Assembly: GCA_050633405.1 (NCBI GenBank)
Contig: JBOEGL010000007.1
Span: 184,892 to 248,891 of the forward strand
Reading direction: 5' to 3'
DNA length: 64,000 nt
Source of the DNA: Cognatishimia sp.
Lineage (GTDB): Bacteria > Pseudomonadota > Alphaproteobacteria > Rhodobacterales > Rhodobacteraceae
Shown here piece after piece: positions 32,376 to 40,909 of this stretch (position 1 is the first letter of the stretch; each line of letters opens with the position of its first letter). A program made the translations under genes and the position numbers. Under the pieces are notes generated by a model. It ran no database searches. It saw only the letters and a list, made by a program, of their open reading frames with translations, and was not told the DNA's origin.

Positions 32376-33173
32376 ATGAATATGATGACTGACCCCAAAA
32401 ATGTGCCGCATTACGCACCAACCGGCAATGAATGCACGCTGTTTGAAACAGCTTATAACAACGGTTTGCCCCTTCTTTTGAAGGGGCCGACCGGCTGCGG
32501 CAAAACCCGCTTTGTGGAACATATGGCCGCGCGCATGGGCCGCAAGTTGTACACCGTGGCGTGCCATGATGATCTGTCCGCCGCTGACTTGATCGGGCGG
32601 TATTTGCTGCGTGGGGGCGAAACCGAATGGGTGGATGGTCCTTTGGCGCGTGCGGTACGCGAAGGCGCGATCTGCTATCTCGATGAGGTGGTCGAAGCCC
32701 GCAAAGATGTGACTGTGGTCCTGCACCCGCTCACCGACAACCGCCGCACTTTGATGATCGACCGCACCGGCGAAGAGTTGCAAGCCCCCAAAGGTTTTAT
32801 GCTCGTGGCCTCGTATAACCCAGGCTATCAAAATGTCCTCAAGCGGCTTAAGCCATCGACCCGACAACGCTTTCTGTCCGCCAGTTTCGACTTTCCCGAA
32901 GCCCATATCGAAACCGCGATTGTGGTGCAGGAAAGTGGTTTGGATGCAAAACGTGTTGCGCCACTGATCCGCTTGGCCGGGAAAATTCGCGGCTTGTCTG
33001 GCATGGATTTGGAAGAGGGTGTTTCAACCCGGCTATTGATCTATGCGGCCAGCTTGGTGGCAGGTGGCATGCCGTTGCTCCAAGCGCTTGAAGCGGCGGT
33101 CATCGAACCGCTCAGCGACGACGCTGATACCAAAGCAGCATTGCGCGATTTGATTGCGGTTACATACGGATAG
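32376..33173 (+). CDS. norQ: NorQ MoxR-type AAA+ ATPase
   Basis: GPTGCGKT, YLDEVVEARKD, LKPSTRQRF, STRLLIYAA. Confidence 0.95.
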   Translation: MNMMTDPKNVPHYAPTGNECTLFETAYNNGLPLLLKGPTGCGKTRFVEHMAARMGRKLYTVACHDDLSAADLIGRYLLRGGETEWVDGPLARAVREGAICYLDEVVEARKDVTVVLHPLTDNRRTLMIDRTGEELQAPKGFMLVASYNPGYQNVLKRLKPSTRQRFLSASFDFPEAHIETAIVVQESGLDAKRVAPLIRLAGKIRGLSGMDLEEGVSTRLLIYAASLVAGGMPLLQALEAAVIEPLSDDADTKAALRDLIAVTYG

Positions 33174-33178
33174 TAACA

Positions 33179-35062
33179 ATGGAACTTCTGAACCTGTTTG
33201 AACCCGAAGAGACCGTCGGCAATGCCTGGCACGACATTGCCAGCCGTATCGCGTCTGATCAGCGGTTTGAACAGGCCGCAATTCAACTGCCTCAGATCCG
33301 CACCAGCCTGGCAGTCTTGTTTCGCGCTTTGGGCGGGGCTGCGGGGGTTGATATTGCCGAGGCCCCGGCCTCCAAAGCCCTGCATCGCACCCGATTGCGT
33401 CTTGCTTTTGGCTCAGGTGGAGAGACCGTCACAAGCGCCACCTATGACGGTGAACGCCTGCGTTTGCCACCGGTGATCGACTGTTTTGCAGATCCATCCC
33501 TGAACAAAGCTGCCTATATGTGGCTAACTGCCTCTGCGGCTTTGACCGATGTAAGCCAATTGGATTTGCCGATGGCTGACCAAGCCAGAGACTGCGCCCA
33601 GATCAGGGCCAATATCCAGGCCTCTGACCGTGTTTTCAAAAACTGCCCGGGATTGCGTGAGGTTTATGGCCATCTTTGCTCTGGGATATTAGAGCAACGG
33701 GTCACAGCCACTTTGCCACCAGCCGAAGCTGCGATGGAACGGGCCGTGCGCGACCAATTGAATGGCTCTGCGGCACCGATAGAGATTTCGGCGACAAGCC
33801 GTGGATACCGGCCCTTTGCCCCCGTGCCAATCTGGCTCGACTTCCGGCCCACCGTCGCCAGCAAACACAATCCCGATGCAGCGCAAGAAAAATCCTCGGC
33901 CCCTGGGGTACCGACAACAACCCGCAAAATGGGAGAACGCCGCGATCTTGATCAGGCCAACCGCAAAGACAGCTTTATCGTGCACCGCTTTGAATCCATC
34001 CTGTCTTGGGTGGAAAGCATGAACATCAATCGAAGCGTTGATGACGATGACGACGAAAATGCCAAGAAAGCCGCCGAAGATCAGGACAGCGTGACCTTGT
34101 CGCGCCATGATCGCAAAGCTGCGACACGGCTGCGGTTGCATCTTGATTTGTCACCTATCGAGGCCGAACATGAACGGCTTGCCGGTAAATTCACCTATCC
34201 AGAATGGAACCATAGGTCCCGTAGCTATATGCAAGATCACGTGCGGGTGTTGGAAGCCCCTGTGCAGAGCGATGCAAACAATAAATTCACCCCAGATCCG
34301 CGTCGTATTGCAGAGGTCCGGCGGCAGTTTGTTGCACTGCGTCCACGTCGCATTCTGACCCCAAGACAAATTGACGGCCAAGAGCTTGATCTGGATGCGG
34401 TGATAGCTGCGCGCGCAGATCTGCAAGCCACGGGGCGGGGCAGTGACCGGATCTATATGGCCAGCCGTCAAATAGAACGGGACCTATCGGTTGCAGTGTT
34501 GATGGATACATCGCGATCGACCGAAGCGGCCATCGGTGAAACCTGTGTGATCGACGTGGCGCGTGACGCGTTGGCCGCCCTGGCTACGGGCATAGATGCC
34601 AGCGGTGATCGTCTGGGCATTTGGGGATTTTCATCGCTGAAACGAAACCGGGTTTTCCTAAGCAAATGCAAGGGGTTTGACGACCCGATGTCCGCGAAAG
34701 TCACAGAAAACATCTGTGCGCTTCGGCCCGGCCATTACACCCGTTTGGGGGCAGCGATCCGCCATTCGGCGATGCGGTTGGCGGATGAAAGTTCCAGCCG
34801 TCGGCTGCTGCTTGTGTTGACCGACGGCAAACCTAATGACTTGGATCACTACGAAGGCCAGCATGGCATCGAAGACAGCCATATGGCGGTGCGCGAAGCC
34901 CGGCGTATGGGATTAACGGTGCACGGCATCGTCGTAGACGAAGACGGCCAAGATTGGTTTGCGCGCATCTTTGGCAAAGGCGGATTTACGCTGTTGCCAA
35001 ACCCAAACCGCCTGACCCGTGCCTTGCCCGAAATTTACCGCGTTTTGACACAGGAGACATAA
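33179..35062 (+). CDS. norD: NorD VWA-domain protein
   Basis: YPEW motif, MIDAS DTSRST, YTRLGAAIRH, TDGKPNDLDHYEG. Confidence 0.93.
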   Translation: MELLNLFEPEETVGNAWHDIASRIASDQRFEQAAIQLPQIRTSLAVLFRALGGAAGVDIAEAPASKALHRTRLRLAFGSGGETVTSATYDGERLRLPPVIDCFADPSLNKAAYMWLTASAALTDVSQLDLPMADQARDCAQIRANIQASDRVFKNCPGLREVYGHLCSGILEQRVTATLPPAEAAMERAVRDQLNGSAAPIEISATSRGYRPFAPVPIWLDFRPTVASKHNPDAAQEKSSAPGVPTTTRKMGERRDLDQANRKDSFIVHRFESILSWVESMNINRSVDDDDDENAKKAAEDQDSVTLSRHDRKAATRLRLHLDLSPIEAEHERLAGKFTYPEWNHRSRSYMQDHVRVLEAPVQSDANNKFTPDPRRIAEVRRQFVALRPRRILTPRQIDGQELDLDAVIAARADLQATGRGSDRIYMASRQIERDLSVAVLMDTSRSTEAAIGETCVIDVARDALAALATGIDASGDRLGIWGFSSLKRNRVFLSKCKGFDDPMSAKVTENICALRPGHYTRLGAAIRHSAMRLADESSSRRLLLVLTDGKPNDLDHYEGQHGIEDSHMAVREARRMGLTVHGIVVDEDGQDWFARIFGKGGFTLLPNPNRLTRALPEIYRVLTQET

Positions 35063-35063
35063 T

Positions 35064-35231
35064 ATGCGCTTTCTAATTTTACTGCTAATGGCCAGCCCCG
35101 CCGCTGCCAGCGAATTTGACCGGCCGATCCCCAATGCGCAATCTGCCACCGCCGAGTTTTGGTTTGCCCTGGCCTCTATTTTGCTGGTTGTGGCTTTGGT
35201 TGCCGTGGGGCGGGTGGTCGCCAAAAGATGA
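35064..35231 (+). CDS. 55-aa membrane protein (NnrT-like); absent from the ORF track
   Basis: Hand-translated MRFLILLLMASPAAASEFDRPIPNAQSATAEFWFALASILLVVALVAVGRVVAKR; AGGAG RBS; stop overlaps the next ATG (ATGA). Confidence 0.75.
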   Translation: MRFLILLLMASPAAASEFDRPIPNAQSATAEFWFALASILLVVALVAVGRVVAKR

Positions 35232-35446
35232 GCGGCCAGGCAAAACTCATGCTGGTGCTTTATCCCTTTGGGTGTGGTGCCATGGCGGTGAACGCGTTTT
35301 TTGCCTCATTGCTGGGCAGTTGGGTGGGTTTGCCGGTATTATCTATGGCGCAATCCATTGTGCTTGGCGCATTGATTGCGCTGCCTGCCACCTGGTATTT
35401 TTCAAAATACATCTACGGGCTGGCGCAGCAGATCGACGCGCCCTGA
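35228..35446 (+). CDS. 72-aa two-TM protein (NnrT-like)
   Basis: MSGQAKLMLVLYPFGCGAMAVNAFFASLLGSWVGLPVLS...; translationally coupled to the preceding ORF. Confidence 0.75.
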   Translation: MSGQAKLMLVLYPFGCGAMAVNAFFASLLGSWVGLPVLSMAQSIVLGALIALPATWYFSKYIYGLAQQIDAP

Positions 35447-35563
35447 TATCGTGTAAATCTTGGGCAAATCCACATCATAGCCAATGCGCTTTGCTCGTTT
35501 GAGCACCTTTATTCTGAACCCCAAGAATTGCACGAGAATTTGTTGAGCTGCGCCGCTGAATGT

Positions 35564-35580
35564 GGTCTATGGAATAGACC
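35564..35580. promoter_or_regulatory. Perfect inverted repeat abutting the methyltransferase ATG
   Basis: GGTCTAT-GGA-ATAGACC immediately before ATG 35581. Confidence 0.5.
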
Positions 35581-36744
35581 ATGGCACAGAACAAGATAAG
35601 AACATATTACGAATTCTTTGCAGGCGGCGGCATGGCGCGTGCCGGGCTAGGGGACACATGGACTTGTCTTTTGGCCAATGATTTTGATCGCAAGAAAGCC
35701 GGAACCTACCGCTCAAATTGGGGCGGGGATACGCTGATTACCGATGATATTCGTAATATCTCGCCCGATGAAATGCCCGGAAATCCAGATCTGGTTTGGG
35801 GGTCTTTTCCCTGTCAGGACCTGTCTCTTGCGGGCAATGGTGCCGGATTAAAGGGCAACCGATCCGGCACATTCTGGCCGTTCATGTCACATCTAAAAGC
35901 ATTGAAAGACGAAGGCCGTGCCCCGGCCATGATTGCGCTGGAAAACGTACTTGGCACCTTAACCTCACATCAAGGCAAGGATTTCGCCGCCATCTGTCAG
36001 GCCTTCCAACGGCTTGGTTACCGCTTTGGTGCCTTTGTCGTGGATGCCGCGCATTTTGTGCCACAATCTCGCCCGCGTCTGTTCCTGATCGCGGTTGATA
36101 ATACGCTGCCGGTAGACAGCACCTTGCTTGAAACCGGACCCGTTGCGCCCTGGCATTCCGCCGCAATTGTGAAAGCTCACAATGGGTTGTCACGCAAGTT
36201 GCAAAAGGAATGGCTGTGGTGGCATCTACCTACCCCTCCGCAGCGTTTGTCAAAGTTTGCGGATCTGATCGAAGAAAACCCAACCTCCACGAAATGGCAC
36301 AGCAAAGCGGAAACAACCGCGCTCTTGTCGATGATGTCAGAGGTGAATCTGGCTAAAGTCGAAACCGCAATGGCGTCTGAAACCCGCATGGTTGGCGCGA
36401 TTTACAAGCGCACGCGGCATGAACACGGTATCAAAGTACAACGCGCAGAAATTCGGTTTGATGACATCGCCGGTTGTTTGCGTACTCCTGCAGGGGGCTC
36501 GTCGCGACAGTCCATCATGGTGGTCGAAGGCAAAAACATTCGATCCCGGTTGATTTCCACGCGCGAAACCGCGCGCCTAATGGGCCTGCCAGATAGTTAC
36601 ATCTTGCCAGAGCGTTATAACGAGGCCTACCACCTGACAGGCGATGGTGTGGCTGTTCCGGTTGTGCGATTTATCGCCAAGAACCTGCTTGAAAAACTAA
36701 TCGACCGTGTTCCGAACGACAAAAGGCGCTCTTCCATTGTCTGA
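35581..36744 (+). CDS. DNA (cytosine-5)-methyltransferase
   Basis: Motif I EFFAGGG, IV SFPCQDLS, VI ENV, VIII QSRPR, IX RETARLMG, X GDGVAVPV, in canonical order. Confidence 0.95.
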   Translation: MAQNKIRTYYEFFAGGGMARAGLGDTWTCLLANDFDRKKAGTYRSNWGGDTLITDDIRNISPDEMPGNPDLVWGSFPCQDLSLAGNGAGLKGNRSGTFWPFMSHLKALKDEGRAPAMIALENVLGTLTSHQGKDFAAICQAFQRLGYRFGAFVVDAAHFVPQSRPRLFLIAVDNTLPVDSTLLETGPVAPWHSAAIVKAHNGLSRKLQKEWLWWHLPTPPQRLSKFADLIEENPTSTKWHSKAETTALLSMMSEVNLAKVETAMASETRMVGAIYKRTRHEHGIKVQRAEIRFDDIAGCLRTPAGGSSRQSIMVVEGKNIRSRLISTRETARLMGLPDSYILPERYNEAYHLTGDGVAVPVVRFIAKNLLEKLIDRVPNDKRRSSIV

Positions 36745-37651
36745 AATACCCTGCGAAAAAAATGCTGAGCTGCGCCAGAAAATTTTGGAATTCGCCGAGG
36801 TTCTTAAGACCGAAGCCCACAAGCTTGGCGATCACGGTCTTGATGAACAAGATTTTTATCAATCTGGCCTGTTCCGCGGCACCATCGAACGTATTCGCGG
36901 CCAGTTTTCTGCATCAATGAAGGAAAAGCGCAGCTTTGTGGCTTTGGTTTTGACCCATATGCAAGCGCGGGGATTTGTGCGGTCTTGGGGCTCTGCCGGC
37001 GAGGCCAATCGCCACGATTATTTTGTGACCCTAAACAATGGCCGCACGGCGATCATCGAACTTAAGGGCTGTTTGGATGGCAACAACACCAATAGTTTTG
37101 AACGCCCGCCGCATGCGGATGAATTCATTATCTGGAGCGTCTGCAGCAATCCCGGGGCAGATCCGCGTCACAATGTTTGGTCAGGTATTCACACACGACT
37201 CAGTGCTGAGATGATCGACCGGGATCAGCGCATTGATGGTTTGATTGTCTGGGATTGGATATGCGGAACATCTGCGCGGCCCTGTCCAAAACTCGCGCTT
37301 GATCCGGATCGGGCCACGGATATTGGCGACTACAGGTTGCCGCCGCCCTGTATCTATTTGTTTCCTGGCACTGTCCCCAGTCCGCGCAACAACCCCAATC
37401 CGCGGGTGAATACCTTGGCTGATGTGGGCATTCTAGAAGCAATGCATCAATGTTTTGGTGGTTTTGACAGCGAACTCAACGCGGTTTCGGTGGAAGTGGC
37501 GCATCGCGATGCGGACACCGTGCGCACAACCTCGATCATCAGAGAAGGCACCGTGCAAAAGACAACAGAGCCAACACACCCATCCGGCGCAAATAAAGAG
37601 GCACGGCAGCCGCGTTTCTTGCCTAACTCAGGCCTGTTGGCCAAGGGGTAA
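36737..37651 (+). CDS. Putative PD-(D/E)XK restriction endonuclease (TTG start assumed; ORF open from 36707)
   Basis: RHDYFVTLNNGRTAIIELKG (D...E-x-K spacing); 8-nt overlap with the MTase stop; no other family recognised. Confidence 0.6.
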   Translation: MSEIPCEKNAELRQKILEFAEVLKTEAHKLGDHGLDEQDFYQSGLFRGTIERIRGQFSASMKEKRSFVALVLTHMQARGFVRSWGSAGEANRHDYFVTLNNGRTAIIELKGCLDGNNTNSFERPPHADEFIIWSVCSNPGADPRHNVWSGIHTRLSAEMIDRDQRIDGLIVWDWICGTSARPCPKLALDPDRATDIGDYRLPPPCIYLFPGTVPSPRNNPNPRVNTLADVGILEAMHQCFGGFDSELNAVSVEVAHRDADTVRTTSIIREGTVQKTTEPTHPSGANKEARQPRFLPNSGLLAKG

Positions 37652-39010
37652 ATGCAGCGTCAAGCTTGCGCCGATTTCAACCTCGTCTATTTCCAGTCGG
37701 CCACCATGTTTCTCGGCCACCGAATTTGCAATCGCCAACCCCAGACCGCTACCGCTAGAGGGTTCGAGCTGCGAAAAGCGTCTGAAGGCTGCGTCCTGCT
37801 GGCTAGGCGCAAGCCCCTTGCCATCGTCCTGAACCAAGATGCAGACCTCGTTGCCCTGCGTGAATAGGCGCAGGCAAATACTGCTGAGGTCTGGGCCCCC
37901 ATGCGTCAGAGCATTGTCGATCAGGTTCTTCACCGCCTCTGACAAATAAAGCGCATCACCCTGAAACATCACTGGACCCGGGTCTGCATCAAATTCGAAC
38001 GCAATCCCGGCTGATAACAAAACAGAACCTTGCTCTGCACAAAGGTCTTTTATCAAGGCCCGCAGGTCAAACTCGGTGAATTGCTCCATCTCGGTGGCGT
38101 GTCTTAACCGGTCCATAGACAACAGTTGTTCGGTGATCCGCGTTACATTTCTGGCAGCTTTTTCCAAATCTCTTGTGCGCTGCTTGCGGTCTTCTCCTGA
38201 CTGGGCATCCTTCACAGCTTGCGTCATTGATTGCATCGCAGCGACAGGATTTCTCAGCTGGTGTGCAGCATCAGAGATAAAGGCTTGATGAGCTTGCAGG
38301 TTGTTTTCTAGCAATGAAAATAATGAGTTAAGCGTTTTGACAATTCCTTTGGCCTCGGCGGGAACCGGGCGCTTAATCCGGCTAAGATCGTTCGGGGACC
38401 GCTCGGCGATGGCATTGCGCAGATCAATCAAGGGCCAAAGGCCCCACCCAACGCCGAACCAAACCACAAGCGCCAAGGTCAGCAATAATGCCCCCATCAA
38501 ACTTATGGCTCTGATCGCCAATTCATTGGCAAAGGCCTGCCGTTCCGCCAGCCTCTGCCAGACGGTCACCGTGGAATCCCCGCTAAGACCCTCAACCGAT
38601 ATTCGTTCGGTCAGCCGCATAACGCGCACGTTTTCGCCGCGGTAATTTGCTTCAAAAACCTCCGGGCCACCACCAATTTCAGGCGGTGCTATTTTGTCAG
38701 AATTTCCGGGGCTTGGCGGGTAGGCATAACCCGTGACATAGATCCCGCCCGGGCCAGTCGCATGGTAAAAAACCTGCCCGCCGGCCGCGTCGTCAATCAT
38801 CTCGCTGGTCGATGGCAACAGCGCGTCTCCACCTGATACCGCAACATCGCGTGATATGGCCAAAGCAGAGGCCAAAAGGCCCCGATCAAACAGCTCTTGT
38901 GCGGTTTGCTGCGCCACTATGATGCGCCAAATTCCCAGAACCGCAGCCATCAAAACCAAAGGGGTCAATATAAGGGCAAAAAGCCGGATACGTAGCGAGG
39001 CAAATCGCAT
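37628..39010 (-). CDS. tctE: Sensor histidine kinase (TctE-like)
   Basis: Two TM helices, DAAHQLRNP H-box, NLIDNAL, DDGKG, GSGLGLAI. Confidence 0.85.
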   Translation of the reverse strand: MRFASLRIRLFALILTPLVLMAAVLGIWRIIVAQQTAQELFDRGLLASALAISRDVAVSGGDALLPSTSEMIDDAAGGQVFYHATGPGGIYVTGYAYPPSPGNSDKIAPPEIGGGPEVFEANYRGENVRVMRLTERISVEGLSGDSTVTVWQRLAERQAFANELAIRAISLMGALLLTLALVVWFGVGWGLWPLIDLRNAIAERSPNDLSRIKRPVPAEAKGIVKTLNSLFSLLENNLQAHQAFISDAAHQLRNPVAAMQSMTQAVKDAQSGEDRKQRTRDLEKAARNVTRITEQLLSMDRLRHATEMEQFTEFDLRALIKDLCAEQGSVLLSAGIAFEFDADPGPVMFQGDALYLSEAVKNLIDNALTHGGPDLSSICLRLFTQGNEVCILVQDDGKGLAPSQQDAAFRRFSQLEPSSGSGLGLAIANSVAEKHGGRLEIDEVEIGASLTLHLPLGQQA

Positions 39011-39678
39011 TACAAATCCGCCGCCAGCATATAGCCAAGTCCACGCGCAGTTTTGATCGAAATGCCAAATTTTGCCAATCGTTTCCGCAGCCTAGAAACA
39101 TGCGGTTCTACCGCAGTCTCTTCGATATCCGCCCCCACACCATAAACATGATCGGTCAATTGCGCCTTAGACACAATCCGTCCGCGCCGCTCTAGCAAAC
39201 ATTCGAAAACAGCCAGTTCACGACGGGGTATATCCAGCGGTTGCCCCTGTGAAGTCACCTGTCGTGCGGTGCGGTTAAAGGCAAGCTCACCAATGGTTTC
39301 AATGTCGCCATAGTCCAACTCTTTGCGTCGCGACAAAGCTCTGATGCGGGCTTCCAGTTCATCCATTTCAAAGGGTTTGATCAAATAGTCATCTGCCCCA
39401 GCATCCAAGCCCTGCACACGATCTTTGGTCTCTGTGCGCGCGGTCAGCAAAATCACCGGTGTCCCATCATTGCGGCGGCGCATGGCGCGCAAGATCTCCA
39501 AGCCTGTGCGCCCCGGCAGATTTATATCCAAGACCACCAAATCCGCCCCTTCTTGGGTCAGGAACCGATGGGCCAAATCACCATCAACCAGAACATCCGC
39601 TGAATGCCCTCGGTCGCGCAGCCGGTACGCGATGGCATTGGCGAGAGTTTCATTGTCTTCGATGATAGCAATGCGCAT
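39010..39678 (-). CDS. tctD: OmpR-family response regulator (TctD-like)
   Basis: IIEDN, LDINLPG, GLDAGADDYLIKPF, VSRLRKRL...TARGLGY. Confidence 0.88.
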   Translation of the reverse strand: MRIAIIEDNETLANAIAYRLRDRGHSADVLVDGDLAHRFLTQEGADLVVLDINLPGRTGLEILRAMRRRNDGTPVILLTARTETKDRVQGLDAGADDYLIKPFEMDELEARIRALSRRKELDYGDIETIGELAFNRTARQVTSQGQPLDIPRRELAVFECLLERRGRIVSKAQLTDHVYGVGADIEETAVEPHVSRLRKRLAKFGISIKTARGLGYMLAADL

Positions 39679-39688
39679 TCTGTCTCCT

Positions 39689-39708
39689 GCAAGCTTGCCG
39701 CAAGGTTG
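39689..39708. promoter_or_regulatory. 11-bp-period direct repeat, candidate OmpR-family binding site
   Basis: GCAAGCTTG (39689-97) and GCAAGGTTG (39700-08) between the divergent tctD and tctC. Confidence 0.5.
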
Positions 39709-39820
39709 GTCTCCCATGATTGGACGATCGAAAGAGGGAATCAATCCCTCATTTCATATGGACAAACAACTTGGCGAGGAGGACGTTGCCGTGTTTGTCT
39801 GGTCTTAAGGGGAGGAACCA

Positions 39821-40909
39821 ATGACCAAATTTGATTTCACACGTCGTGCTGTATTGAGCGTGATTGCCGCTGCGGGTCTCGCAGCTCCTGCCGCAGCCGA
39901 GGTTGATTTTTCAGGCAAAACCATTGAATGGGTGATCCCATTTTCTGAAACAGGTGGCTCTGCCAAATGGGCCAACTTCTTTGCGCCACTGTTGTCAGAA
40001 GCCTTGCCAGGCGCGCCAACCGTTGTGGTAAAGTTTATGCCGGGGGCCGGGTCTACCAAAGGCGCGAATTGGTTCCAGTCTCAAAAGCATAAAGACGGCA
40101 CCTTGCTGTTTGGCACATCTGGTTCGACCCAATTCCCATATTTGCTGGGCGATCCACGCGTGCGTTATGAATATAACGACTGGAACACCGTAATGGCTTC
40201 GGGCACAGGTGGTGTCGCCTATCTTAATGCCGAAGATGGGGCCAAGTTTGATGGCTCTGCCAATGCATTGAAAGACATAGATTTCATCTATGGATCGCAG
40301 GGTGCAACGCGTTTGGATCTGGTGCCTTTGCTGGCCTGGGAAATGCTGGGCATGAATGTTGAACCGGTGTTTGGCATCAAAGGCCGCGGCGATGGTCGTC
40401 TGATGTTTGAACGTGGCGAGGCCACAATAGATTATCAAACATCCTCCGGATACCTGGGTGGTTCTGCGCCACTTGTCGAAGTCGGCCAAGCAGTTCCCAT
40501 GATGACCTGGGGCGCGCTTGATACGGACGGCAACATCGTGCGCGACCCGACATTTCCCGAGATTGCGACCTTCAAAGAAGTCTGCGAAGCCACAGATGGC
40601 TGCGAAACTTCGGGTGACGCTTGGGACGCTTGGAAAGCCTTCTTCGTAGCAGGGTTCCCTGTACAGAAATTGGCCTTCTTGCCTGCAGGCACACCTCAGG
40701 ACGTGATCGACACCTATACCGAAGCCTTCAACGAGGTTGTCGCGCGGGCTGACTTTGCCGAGATTTCCTCAAAGCGGGTTGGTAAATATCCGGTCTTTAC
40801 AGGTGCAGGGTCACAAGACGCGTTGGCCACAGCGACACAAGTTCCGACATCAGCCAAAGACTTTGTGGTTGGCTGGCTCAAAGACGCATATGGTGTTTCG
40901 CTGAAATAG
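39821..40909 (+). CDS. tctC: Tripartite tricarboxylate transporter substrate-binding protein
   Basis: Signal peptide, FSGKTIEWVIPFSETGGS, MPGAGS; upstream of tctA. Confidence 0.85.
   Translation: MTKFDFTRRAVLSVIAAAGLAAPAAAEVDFSGKTIEWVIPFSETGGSAKWANFFAPLLSEALPGAPTVVVKFMPGAGSTKGANWFQSQKHKDGTLLFGTSGSTQFPYLLGDPRVRYEYNDWNTVMASGTGGVAYLNAEDGAKFDGSANALKDIDFIYGSQGATRLDLVPLLAWEMLGMNVEPVFGIKGRGDGRLMFERGEATIDYQTSSGYLGGSAPLVEVGQAVPMMTWGALDTDGNIVRDPTFPEIATFKEVCEATDGCETSGDAWDAWKAFFVAGFPVQKLAFLPAGTPQDVIDTYTEAFNEVVARADFAEISSKRVGKYPVFTGAGSQDALATATQVPTSAKDFVVGWLKDAYGVSLK

What the first reader, a model, noticed from the sequence alone, without database searches (positions are those of the whole stretch)
35581..37651. 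C5-methyltransferase coupled to an unclassified Cys-rich PD-(D/E)XK protein: candidate uncharacterised type II R-M system
An intact m5C MTase with a long variable region overlaps by 8 nt a ~300-aa ORF carrying HDY-x12-ELKG catalytic spacing and 7 cysteines (including WICGTSARPCPK). The ORF resembles no REase family I can name. The pair is wedged between the nor and tct modules, with no Vsr, controller or mobility gene in the window. From memory, the MTase N-terminus (YEFFAGGGMARAGLG) resembles alphaproteobacterial MTases usually described as solitary, such as Caulobacter ScmA; this needs a BLAST check. If so, this locus would show the cognate nuclease of that family, possibly a rare cutter with a metal-Cys site.
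Basis: partly seen in the sequence, partly recalled or inferred. Interest (0 to 1): 0.7.

Follow-up and report, generated by a model that had tools for sequence, protein, structure and literature searches.

The report
GGCGCC-type restriction-modification gene pair
A cytosine methylase and the nuclease gene behind it form a common, widely exchanged bacterial restriction-modification system that most likely targets GGCGCC. It is an ordinary defence module, although its nuclease family has no solved structure and this copy has a frameshifted tail.

Summary
An intact C5-methyltransferase gene (35581-36744) overlaps by 8 nt a 304-codon ORF (36737-37651) that carries D94...E108-x-K110 and seven cysteines.

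The ORF is not an unclassified orphan:
- It matches the PADLOC (REBASE-derived) model REase_II PDLC03501 at E 2e-130.
- It belongs to a family of more than 3000 proteins of about 285 aa.
- In 44 of 44 loci with upstream DNA, the same methylase family sits directly in front of it. These include small plasmids and Burkholderia phages.

The target is most likely GGCGCC:
- A homologous pair on Rhizobium RCAM1026 plasmid pRL11 is the published GGCGCC cluster, and GGCGCC is about 98% methylated in that strain.
- GGCGCC is the most under-represented of all 4096 hexamers in this genome (O/E 0.26).

A sister species, Cognatishimia sp. WU-CL00825, carries the pair at the same site, under strong purifying selection (dN/dS 0.04-0.05).

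This copy of the nuclease gene has a 2-bp insertion five codons before the native stop. It replaces the conserved C-terminal tail, so the enzyme may be weakened or dead.

No solved structure resembles the nuclease beyond weak PD-(D/E)XK hits. Six cysteines are invariant.

Verdict: an ordinary type II R-M system, a new member of a known kind. I could not test identity with R.KasI.

The parts
35447..35580 (+). Intergenic leader upstream of the MTase and left edge of the R-M insert. No controller (C-protein) gene.
   Evidence: The 95-aa ORF 35159-35446 belongs to the nor cluster. It is conserved after norD in G005 (79%) and in G012, which lacks the R-M pair (43%). DNA similarity to other R-M loci starts at about 35587. 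No convincing promoter or operator repeat was found.
35581..36744 (+). C5-cytosine DNA methyltransferase (387 aa), predicted target GGCGCC.
   Evidence: PF00145 E 2.8e-51; TIGR00675 E 2e-47. PADLOC MTase_II PDLC03243 E 1.6e-105 and DruM2 PDLC00028 E 2.8e-168. 62% identical over the full length, variable region included, to the MTase of the published GGCGCC cluster of RCAM1026 pRL11. dN/dS 0.051 against the G005 ortholog.
36737..37651 (+). Restriction endonuclease gene as it stands in the assembly (304 aa from TTG 36737). PD-(D/E)XK-type, with catalytic candidates D94, E108 and K110, and six family-invariant cysteines.
   Evidence: PADLOC REase_II PDLC03501 E 1.9e-130; phrog_31486 E 5.4e-131. 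3165 homologues. Conservation. AF2 pLDDT 82.5 and 87.6. dN/dS 0.038.
37574..37594 (+). Site of a 2-bp insertion (extra AC in GCCAACACACCC against GCCA--ACCCCC in G005) and the native, now out-of-frame stop TAA at 37592-37594.
   Evidence: Pairwise DNA alignment with the syntenic ortholog of G005. The family C-terminus ...PTPIRR(S/K)* is replaced by HPSGANKEARQPRFLPNSGLLAKG*. In the family, I282 and R284 are at least 90% conserved.
37596..37654 (.). Junction where 2.3 kb (nhaA + lysR-type regulator) present in G005 is absent here. The frameshifted R ORF runs through it into the 3' end of the convergent histidine-kinase gene (37628-39010, minus strand).
   Evidence: blastn window against G005: 33000-37595 and 37655-40000 align, with 2315 bp extra in G005. 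Pfam of the two G005 ORFs gives Na_H_antiport_1 E 7e-148 and LysR.

Best explanation
This is a classical two-gene type II restriction-modification module.

How it works (inferred): the methyltransferase puts 5-methylcytosine on GGCGCC sites of the host DNA. The downstream, translationally coupled gene encodes a PD-(D/E)XK endonuclease (D94/E108/K110) that cuts unmethylated GGCGCC in incoming phage or plasmid DNA. The cleavage chemistry and cut position are inferred, not shown.

Origin: the pair belongs to a very large, highly conserved, horizontally mobile family found on small plasmids, phages and chromosomes. In this lineage (genus Cognatishimia) it was acquired before the split from Cognatishimia sp. 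WU-CL00825. It has since been inherited vertically between norD and the tctE-like kinase, under strong purifying selection.

This strain: the nuclease gene has a recent 2-bp insertion that replaces the conserved five-residue C-terminal tail with 24 unrelated residues. Methylation is probably intact. Restriction may be intact, weakened or lost.
For: Shown here:
- Gene pair and motifs.
- R matches the REBASE-derived REase_II model PDLC03501 at E 1.9e-130.
- An MTase of the same family lies directly upstream of R in 44/44 loci that have upstream DNA. These include the 6-kb mobilizable plasmid pP14_g, R. denitrificans pTB3 and Burkholderia phages Menos and AH2. Vsr is attached in about ten of them.
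- DNA similarity between loci is limited to the two ORFs.
- The family is patchy among relatives, 4 of 61 genomes.
- D94, K110 and six Cys are invariant and E108 is at least 90% conserved.
- The predicted core has beta-beta-beta-alpha-beta topology, and the weak Foldseek hits are mostly PD-(D/E)XK nucleases (SfsA prob 0.94, EcoO109I, AvaII, Hjc, NucS).

Specificity:
- The pRL11 pair of R. ruizarguesonis RCAM1026 (M 62%, R 66% identical) is the cluster assigned to GGCGCC in PMC8709438. GGCGCC is about 98% methylated in that strain.
- In this genome GGCGCC is the most under-represented of all 4096 hexamers (515 observed, 1964 expected, O/E 0.26).
- Carriers G000, G005 and G024 have the three lowest GGCGCC/CCGCGG ratios of 19 related genomes (one-sided Mann-Whitney p 0.007, not corrected for phylogeny).
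- The one-step neighbours of GGCGCC show no C-to-T-specific excess. This fits selection against the site better than deamination decay.

History:
- Same synteny in G005. dS of R (0.98) equals that of norD (0.985). dN/dS is 0.038 for R and 0.051 for M.
Against:
- The GGCGCC assignment rests on a 62-66% identical homologue plus word statistics.
- Two other, unrelated C5-MTases exist in the genome and could in principle cause the GGCGCC depletion.
- One carrier (G030) shows no depletion.
- Pooled flanks of 42 carrier loci show GGCGCC only marginally lowest (O/E 0.57 against 0.59-0.61 for the next words).
- The frameshift removes residues conserved in at least 90% of the family, so the nuclease may be inactive.
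- No solved structure matches with E < 1e-3, so the fold assignment is by motif, topology and weak hits only.
Confidence: 0.75

Rival explanations
1. The module is now effectively a solitary methyltransferase with a decaying nuclease gene. The 2-bp insertion destroyed the conserved C-terminal tail, restriction is lost, and only GGCGCC methylation persists.
For: The frameshift replaces ...PIRR(K/S)*. I282 and R284 are at least 90% conserved across two clades. In the native-type model the tail is partly ordered (pLDDT 67, strand at 280-281). A 2.3-kb deletion lies within 20 bp of the insertion, which suggests a local rearrangement. Loss of R with retention of M is the usual decay route, and Caulobacter keeps a solitary MTase of this family.
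Against: 280 of 285 native residues, including every catalytic candidate and every invariant cysteine, are intact. There is no other lesion. dN/dS of 0.038 shows R was maintained until very recently. The strong GGCGCC avoidance implies long-term restriction pressure.
Confidence: 0.35
2. It is a working type II R-M system but recognises something other than GGCGCC. The GGCGCC depletion is then caused by another system or by a lineage-wide bias.
For: Specificity is transferred from a 62%-identical MTase. Two other C5-MTases of unknown specificity are in the genome. Non-carrier G008 is also fairly depleted (ratio 0.54) and carrier G030 is not (1.10).
Against: The variable (target-recognition) region is conserved between the window and pRL11 MTases. 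R is 60-85% identical across phyla, which argues for a single specificity. Within the genus the two carriers have the lowest GGCGCC densities, about 140 per Mb against 235-499 per Mb.
Confidence: 0.12
3. ORF2 is not a nuclease but an accessory or regulatory partner of the methyltransferase.
For: No significant structural or sequence match to any solved nuclease. The profile search gave a weak MarR-like hit to the helical N-terminus (E 0.025).
Against: Conserved D...ExK triad on the expected strands. REBASE-derived REase model hit. Presence as an M-R pair on 6-kb plasmids, typical of addiction-type R-M. Vsr association. Target-word avoidance in carriers. UniRef names one clade member 'Restriction endonuclease'.
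Confidence: 0.04
4. The MTase is a remnant of a type II Druantia system (DruM).
For: The best PADLOC hit of the MTase is DruM2 PDLC00028, E 2.8e-168.
Against: No DruE, DruF or DruG-like genes adjoin it. The neighbours are norD and its small ORF, R, and a two-component system. The same model also hits the G005 ortholog and a Caulobacter solitary MTase, so it simply covers this MTase family.
Confidence: 0.01

Closest known systems
GGCGCC restriction-modification cluster of Rhizobium ruizarguesonis (leguminosarum) RCAM1026 plasmid pRL11 (PMC8709438; NZ_CP084698.1 128128-130154)
   Same: Same gene order and overlap (M then R). M is 62% and R 66% identical over the full length. GGCGCC is about 98% methylated in that strain, and REBASE-based annotation lists both genes as GGCGCC.
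   Different: pRL11 has Vsr genes beside the pair and an intact 288-aa R. The window has no Vsr in the whole genome and a frameshifted R tail. The pRL11 enzymes have not been purified either.
Characterised GGCGCC enzymes: KasI (G^GCGCC), NarI, SfoI, BbeI, EheI and PluTI, with their m5C methylases
   Same: Same predicted recognition sequence and a type II m5C-based organisation. An earlier AI note of this scan (e1-730900) places this nuclease family with R.KasI. PMC2875022 states that R.KasI and R.SfoI sequences are public.
   Different: I could not obtain any of these sequences, so membership is untested. No hit in two searches or in the cluster look-ups carries such a name. R.PluTI is described as a different, longer family. 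The cut position is unknown here.
Solitary C5-MTases of Caulobacter crescentus: M.CcrNAIV (CCNA_03741) and ScmA = M.CcrNAV (CCNA_01085, YGCCGGCR)
   Same: The Caulobacter control genome holds a close member of this MTase family (PDLC00028 at E <= 1e-60) and no member of the nuclease family. So the same MTase lineage occurs both coupled and solitary.
   Different: The literature links the GGCGCC MTases to M.CcrNAIV, not ScmA. ScmA recognises an 8-bp site and works with an unlinked Vsr-like protein. I could not align the Caulobacter proteins directly.
PD-(D/E)XK nucleases with solved structures: SfsA (4dap), EcoO109I (1wtd), AvaII (6g3b/6s58), Hjc, NucS
   Same: The D...ExK triad lies on the second and third core strands. 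These are the top Foldseek hits (SfsA E 5e-3, prob 0.94).
   Different: TM-scores are only 0.16-0.27 and no hit reaches E < 1e-3. The helical N-terminal region (about 1-77), the all-beta C-terminal region (about 190-280) and the six invariant cysteines have no counterpart among the hits.

Membership tests
Type II (orthodox) restriction-modification system | Separate, adjacent methyltransferase and endonuclease genes that travel together | tested here: met
   8-nt overlap in the window. A same-family MTase lies directly upstream of R in 44/44 loci with upstream DNA, on chromosomes, plasmids and phages.
Type II (orthodox) restriction-modification system | Intact DNA methyltransferase with all catalytic motifs | tested here: met
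   PF00145 E 2.8e-51 covering 4-323 of 324; TIGR00675 above cut-off. Motifs I, IV (PCQ), VI (ENV), VIII and X are readable.
Type II (orthodox) restriction-modification system | Endonuclease that cleaves the unmethylated recognition site | not testable with these tools
   Indirect only: conserved D94/E108/K110 and GGCGCC avoidance in carrier genomes.
PD-(D/E)XK nuclease superfamily | Catalytic D ... (D/E)-x-K on consecutive beta strands of an alpha-beta-beta-beta-alpha-beta core | tested here: met
   D94 is at the start of strand 95-98 and E108-L-K110 at the end of strand 104-110. These are followed by strand 129-136, helix 143-161 and strand 168-173. D94 and K110 are invariant and E108 at least 90% conserved.
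PD-(D/E)XK nuclease superfamily | Significant structural similarity to a solved member | tested here: inconclusive
   Best hit is SfsA, E 5e-3, prob 0.94, TM 0.23-0.27. EcoO109I, AvaII, Hjc and NucS follow at E 0.07-1.4. Nothing is below 1e-3.
REBASE/PADLOC type II REase family PDLC03501 (GGCGCC-assigned family) | Full-length match to the family profile | tested here: met
   E 1.9e-130, residues 12-290 of the 314-aa form against positions 2-280 of 285. The only position lost is the frameshifted tail.
REBASE/PADLOC type II REase family PDLC03501 (GGCGCC-assigned family) | Recognition of GGCGCC | tested here: inconclusive
   Published methylome of a strain with a 62%/66% identical pair. GGCGCC is the lowest of 4096 hexamers here, O/E 0.26. 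Carriers are depleted. Pooled carrier flanks give only a weak signal.
KasI restriction endonuclease family | Sequence homology to R.KasI of Kluyvera ascorbata | not testable with these tools
   No R.KasI sequence or named cluster could be retrieved. No E. coli-collection match. The claim comes only from an earlier AI note.
Solitary ScmA-type C5-MTase | No linked endonuclease gene | tested here: not met
   An R gene overlaps the MTase stop. ScmA is defined as solitary with target YGCCGGCR (PMC12907096).
Druantia type II | DruM accompanied by DruF, DruG and DruE | tested here: not met
   The DruM2 model hits the MTase, but the neighbours are nor genes, R and a two-component system.
Iron-staple Fe-S PD-(D/E)XK nucleases (AddB/Cas4/Exo5 type) | One N-terminal Cys plus a C-terminal CX2CX5C triad | tested here: not met
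   The invariant cysteines are C6, C112, C136, C176-x6-C183 and C205. No CX2C is present. Cas4 and Exo5 appear only at E 0.4-1.5.

The most novel reading that the evidence does not exclude
The nuclease family (more than 3000 members, no Pfam or NCBIfam model, no solved relative) may be a structurally new PD-(D/E)XK restriction-enzyme architecture. Its six invariant cysteines (C6, C112, C136, C176, C183, C205) would form one or two metal centres (Zn or Fe). They are better conserved than the catalytic residues: a 24%-identical, Vsr-linked paralogue keeps them although it lacks the catalytic Glu. The conserved C-terminal ...IRR tail may also be essential. In that case this strain would be a natural, very recent R-minus/M-plus derivative of an anciently resident system.
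Probability: 0.3. Interest if true: 0.45.

Novelty: new member of a known kind. Interest (0 to 1): 0.25.

Why it matters
Mostly as annotation. Thousands of 'hypothetical proteins' that follow a Dcm-type methylase in Proteobacteria and other phyla, on plasmids and in phages can be read as the nuclease of a GGCGCC-type R-M system.

Three minor points may deserve a specialist's look:
- The family has no solved structure and carries six invariant cysteines.
- It is unusually conserved for a restriction enzyme: 60-85% identity across phyla, dN/dS 0.04.
- This Cognatishimia lineage shows a clean case of long vertical residence with strong GGCGCC avoidance, followed by a fresh C-terminal frameshift. 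That could serve as a natural test of whether the tail is needed.

For anyone transforming these roseobacters, GGCGCC methylation of incoming DNA is the practical consequence.

Tried and rejected
Naming and family searches that gave nothing:
- Pfam, NCBIfam and PDB sequence and profile searches of ORF2 found nothing significant.
- I tried to name the prototype enzyme (KasI, SfoI or NarI). Two large homology searches and two cluster look-ups returned almost only 'hypothetical protein'.
- Paper searches for R.KasI gave only the PluTI paper.
- Orlowski and Bujnicki 2008 does not mention KasI in its text, and its supplements are not held.
- Kozdon 2013 is not held.
- The E. coli genome collection has no DNA match.
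- The PADLOC papers do not say whether the REase_II models derive from characterised or putative REBASE entries.

I could not check the 2-bp insertion against reads or look for expression.

Ideas considered and rejected:
- Druantia reading: rejected for lack of partner genes.
- Iron-staple Fe-S reading: rejected on cysteine spacing.
- Deamination as the cause of GGCGCC depletion (m5C without Vsr): disfavoured, because GGTGCC/GGCACC are not enriched (O/E 1.03). Not excluded.

Other negative or weak results:
- Pooled-flank word statistics of 42 carrier loci were too weak to be decisive.
- No terminal repeats, controller gene or convincing promoter were found around the pair.
Full report
**1. Observation.**

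The region holds two same-strand ORFs.
- The first (35581-36744, 387 aa) is an intact C5-cytosine methyltransferase. Pfam PF00145 scores E 2.8e-51 over 4-323 of 324 profile positions. TIGR00675 scores E 2e-47, above its cut-off.
- The second runs to 37651.
- The HDY-x12-ELKG spacing, the seven cysteines and WICGTSARPCPK are all present.
- ORF2 has no Pfam, NCBIfam or PDB sequence match.
- The genome has no Vsr.

**2. What ORF2 is.**

It is not an orphan.
- It matches PADLOC model PDLC03501 'REase_II' at E 1.9e-130 over essentially the whole 285-position profile. It also matches phrog_31486 at E 5.4e-131.
- A word-indexed search found 3165 homologues, nearly all 285 aa and 65-84% identical in the top 120. 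They span Rhodobacterales, Hyphomicrobiales, Gammaproteobacteria and more.
- An exhaustive search of 50%-identity representatives found 261 clusters.
- A second clade of about 290 aa (45-50% identical) has another 2700 or so members. One is named 'Restriction endonuclease' by UniRef.

**3. Co-distribution and mobility.**

- tblastn found the gene on 19 plasmids and 4 phage records, always beside a 'DNA cytosine methyltransferase'.
- Examples: the 6-kb MOBV plasmid pP14_g of Phaeobacter piscinae, where M-R is the only cargo; R. denitrificans pTB3; and Burkholderia phage Menos, where a Vsr follows.
- In 43 genome loci plus these records, an MTase 57-74% identical (one at 40%) lies immediately upstream on the same strand in 44 of 44 loci that include upstream DNA. 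Vsr is attached in about ten.
- DNA similarity between the window and all other loci is confined to 35587-37589, the two ORFs.
- Among 61 relatives only 4 carry the nuclease.

This is the behaviour of a selfish, mobile R-M pair.

**4. Nuclease features.**

- Across 58 sequences from both clades the invariant residues include D94, K110, C6, C112, C136, C176, C183 and C205. E108 is at least 90% conserved.
- AF2 models are confident. The window allele has pLDDT 82.5 and pTM 0.76. A native-type homologue with a deeper alignment has pLDDT 87.6 and pTM 0.83.
- The models show a helical N-terminal part (10-77), then strands 83-86, 95-98, 104-110 and 129-136, helix 143-161 and strand 168-173. This is the PD-(D/E)XK core, with D94 and E108-x-K110 in the canonical places. 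A beta-rich C-terminal part follows.
- Foldseek against the PDB gives no hit below E 1e-3. The best hits are SfsA (E 5e-3, prob 0.94), EcoO109I, AvaII, Hjc, NucS, VRR-NUC and Cas4-like proteins, which are PD-(D/E)XK nucleases. TM-scores stay below 0.3.

So the fold class is supported, but the architecture has no solved relative.

**5. Specificity.**

- One plasmid hit is pRL11 (655,637 bp) of Rhizobium ruizarguesonis RCAM1026. Its M and R are 62% and 66% identical to the window proteins over the full length, including the MTase variable region.
- PMC8709438 studied exactly this strain by nanopore sequencing. GGCGCC cytosines are about 98% methylated, and the pRL11 M-R pair is listed, via REBASE, as a GGCGCC methyltransferase and restriction enzyme.
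- Independent test 1: I scored all hexamers in the window's own 3.6-Mb genome against a maximal-order Markov expectation. GGCGCC is the most under-represented of all 4096 words (515 observed, 1964 expected, O/E 0.26). The next lowest are ATCGAT at 0.40 and AACGTT at 0.41.
- Independent test 2: in 19 related genomes, carriers G000, G005 and G024 have the three lowest GGCGCC/CCGCGG ratios (0.49, 0.44, 0.16). Non-carriers range from 0.54 to 2.37. The fourth carrier, G030, is not depleted (1.10). A one-sided Mann-Whitney test gives p 0.007, without phylogenetic correction.
- The deamination products GGTGCC/GGCACC are not enriched (O/E 1.03). The depletion therefore looks like selection against the site rather than m5C decay.
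- Pooled flanks of 42 carrier loci give only a marginal signal (0.57).
- Two other C5-MTases in the genome are unrelated (about 25% identity) and of unknown specificity.

Overall I consider GGCGCC likely, not proven.

**6. History of this copy.**

- G005 is identifiable as Cognatishimia sp. WU-CL00825 through its protein record. It has norD, the small ORF, M and R at the same site.
- Synonymous divergence of R (dS 0.98) and M (1.21) equals that of norD (0.985). dN/dS is 0.038 for R and 0.051 for M, as low as for the neighbouring housekeeping genes.
- The pair was therefore already present in the common ancestor and kept functional.
- G012 has norD and the small ORF but no R-M pair. This places the left edge of the insert between 35446 and 35581.
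- Downstream, G005 has a 2.3-kb nhaA-lysR segment that the window lacks.

**7. The frameshift.**

- Aligned with G005, the window has two extra bases in GCCAACACACCC (about 37577). This is five codons before the native stop, which survives out of frame at 37592-37594.
- The family-wide C-terminus ...PTPIRR(S/K) is replaced by 24 unrelated residues, and the ORF now runs into the 3' end of the convergent kinase gene. In the family, I282 and R284 are at least 90% conserved and 'IRR' is kept in both clades.
- All catalytic candidates and all invariant cysteines are untouched.
- Whether the enzyme still works cannot be decided here.

**8.

- The MTase's strongest PADLOC hit is a Druantia DruM2 model (E 2.8e-168). 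No Druantia partners are present. The same model, at E <= 1e-60, also picks one gene in the Caulobacter control genome, and the nuclease model finds none there. Caulobacter therefore has a solitary member of this MTase lineage.
- According to PMC12907096, ScmA (CCNA_01085, M.CcrNAV) methylates YGCCGGCR, and the other enzyme is CCNA_03741 = M.CcrNAIV. PMC8709438 relates the Rhizobium GGCGCC MTases to M.CcrNAIV.
- An earlier AI note of this scan (e1-730900) calls the family 'KasI-type'. I confirmed its size and its association with Vsr and Dcm. I could not obtain R.KasI to test the name.

**9. Verdict.**

This is an ordinary, widespread type II R-M system, most likely GGCGCC-specific, resident for a long time in this Cognatishimia lineage. 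It has a fresh C-terminal frameshift in the nuclease gene. It is a new member of a known kind.

The residual interest lies in the unsolved architecture, the six invariant cysteines and the natural tail mutant.

Noticed in passing
window 37596-37654, compared with L056 (G005:C1:1659500-1669500): Relative to Cognatishimia sp. WU-CL00825, a 2.3-kb segment encoding an NhaA Na+/H+ antiporter and a LysR regulator is missing, directly after the R gene and within 20 bp of the 2-bp insertion. The two lesions may be one rearrangement.
   Followed up: partly
L047 9204-10070 (pRL11 of R. ruizarguesonis RCAM1026); also plasmid hits H18 and H19: A 24-28% identical paralogue of the nuclease sits behind a second vsr gene and before parB, with no MTase of its own. 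It keeps K110 and all six invariant cysteines (CGTPLRPCPK, PPPC) but has Q in place of the catalytic E108, and D94 is not aligned. It may be an inactive or repurposed relative.
   Followed up: partly
own genome, C7:144986-146041 and C6:1836-3035 (outside the window): Two further intact C5-cytosine methyltransferase genes, about 25% identical to the one studied. ATCGAT (O/E 0.40) and AACGTT (O/E 0.41) are the next most avoided palindromes, which hints at other R-M systems.
   Followed up: partly
window 35581-36744 and PADLOC model PDLC00028: The PADLOC 'DruM2' (Druantia type II methylase) model scores this ordinary type II MTase far higher (558 bits) than the matching MTase_II model (351 bits). 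It also hits a solitary Caulobacter MTase. It is not specific for Druantia.
   Followed up: partly
window 35159-35446: A 95-aa hydrophobic ORF after norD is conserved in G005 (79%) and G012 (43%) but has no Pfam or NCBIfam match. It is probably an unannotated small membrane protein of the nor cluster.
   Followed up: partly
L035 4883-5917 (Sulfuricella MAG): Here the nuclease (62% identical) is paired with a much more diverged MTase (40% identical, though the variable-region motifs are still recognisable). This may be a case of methylase replacement within the family.
   Followed up: no
L047 5930-7765 (pRL11): An OLD/Gabija/PARIS-like AAA ATPase gene (NsnB, AriA and GajA models at E 1e-31 to 1e-20) lies directly behind the pRL11 R-M pair, forming a small defence island.
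   Followed up: no
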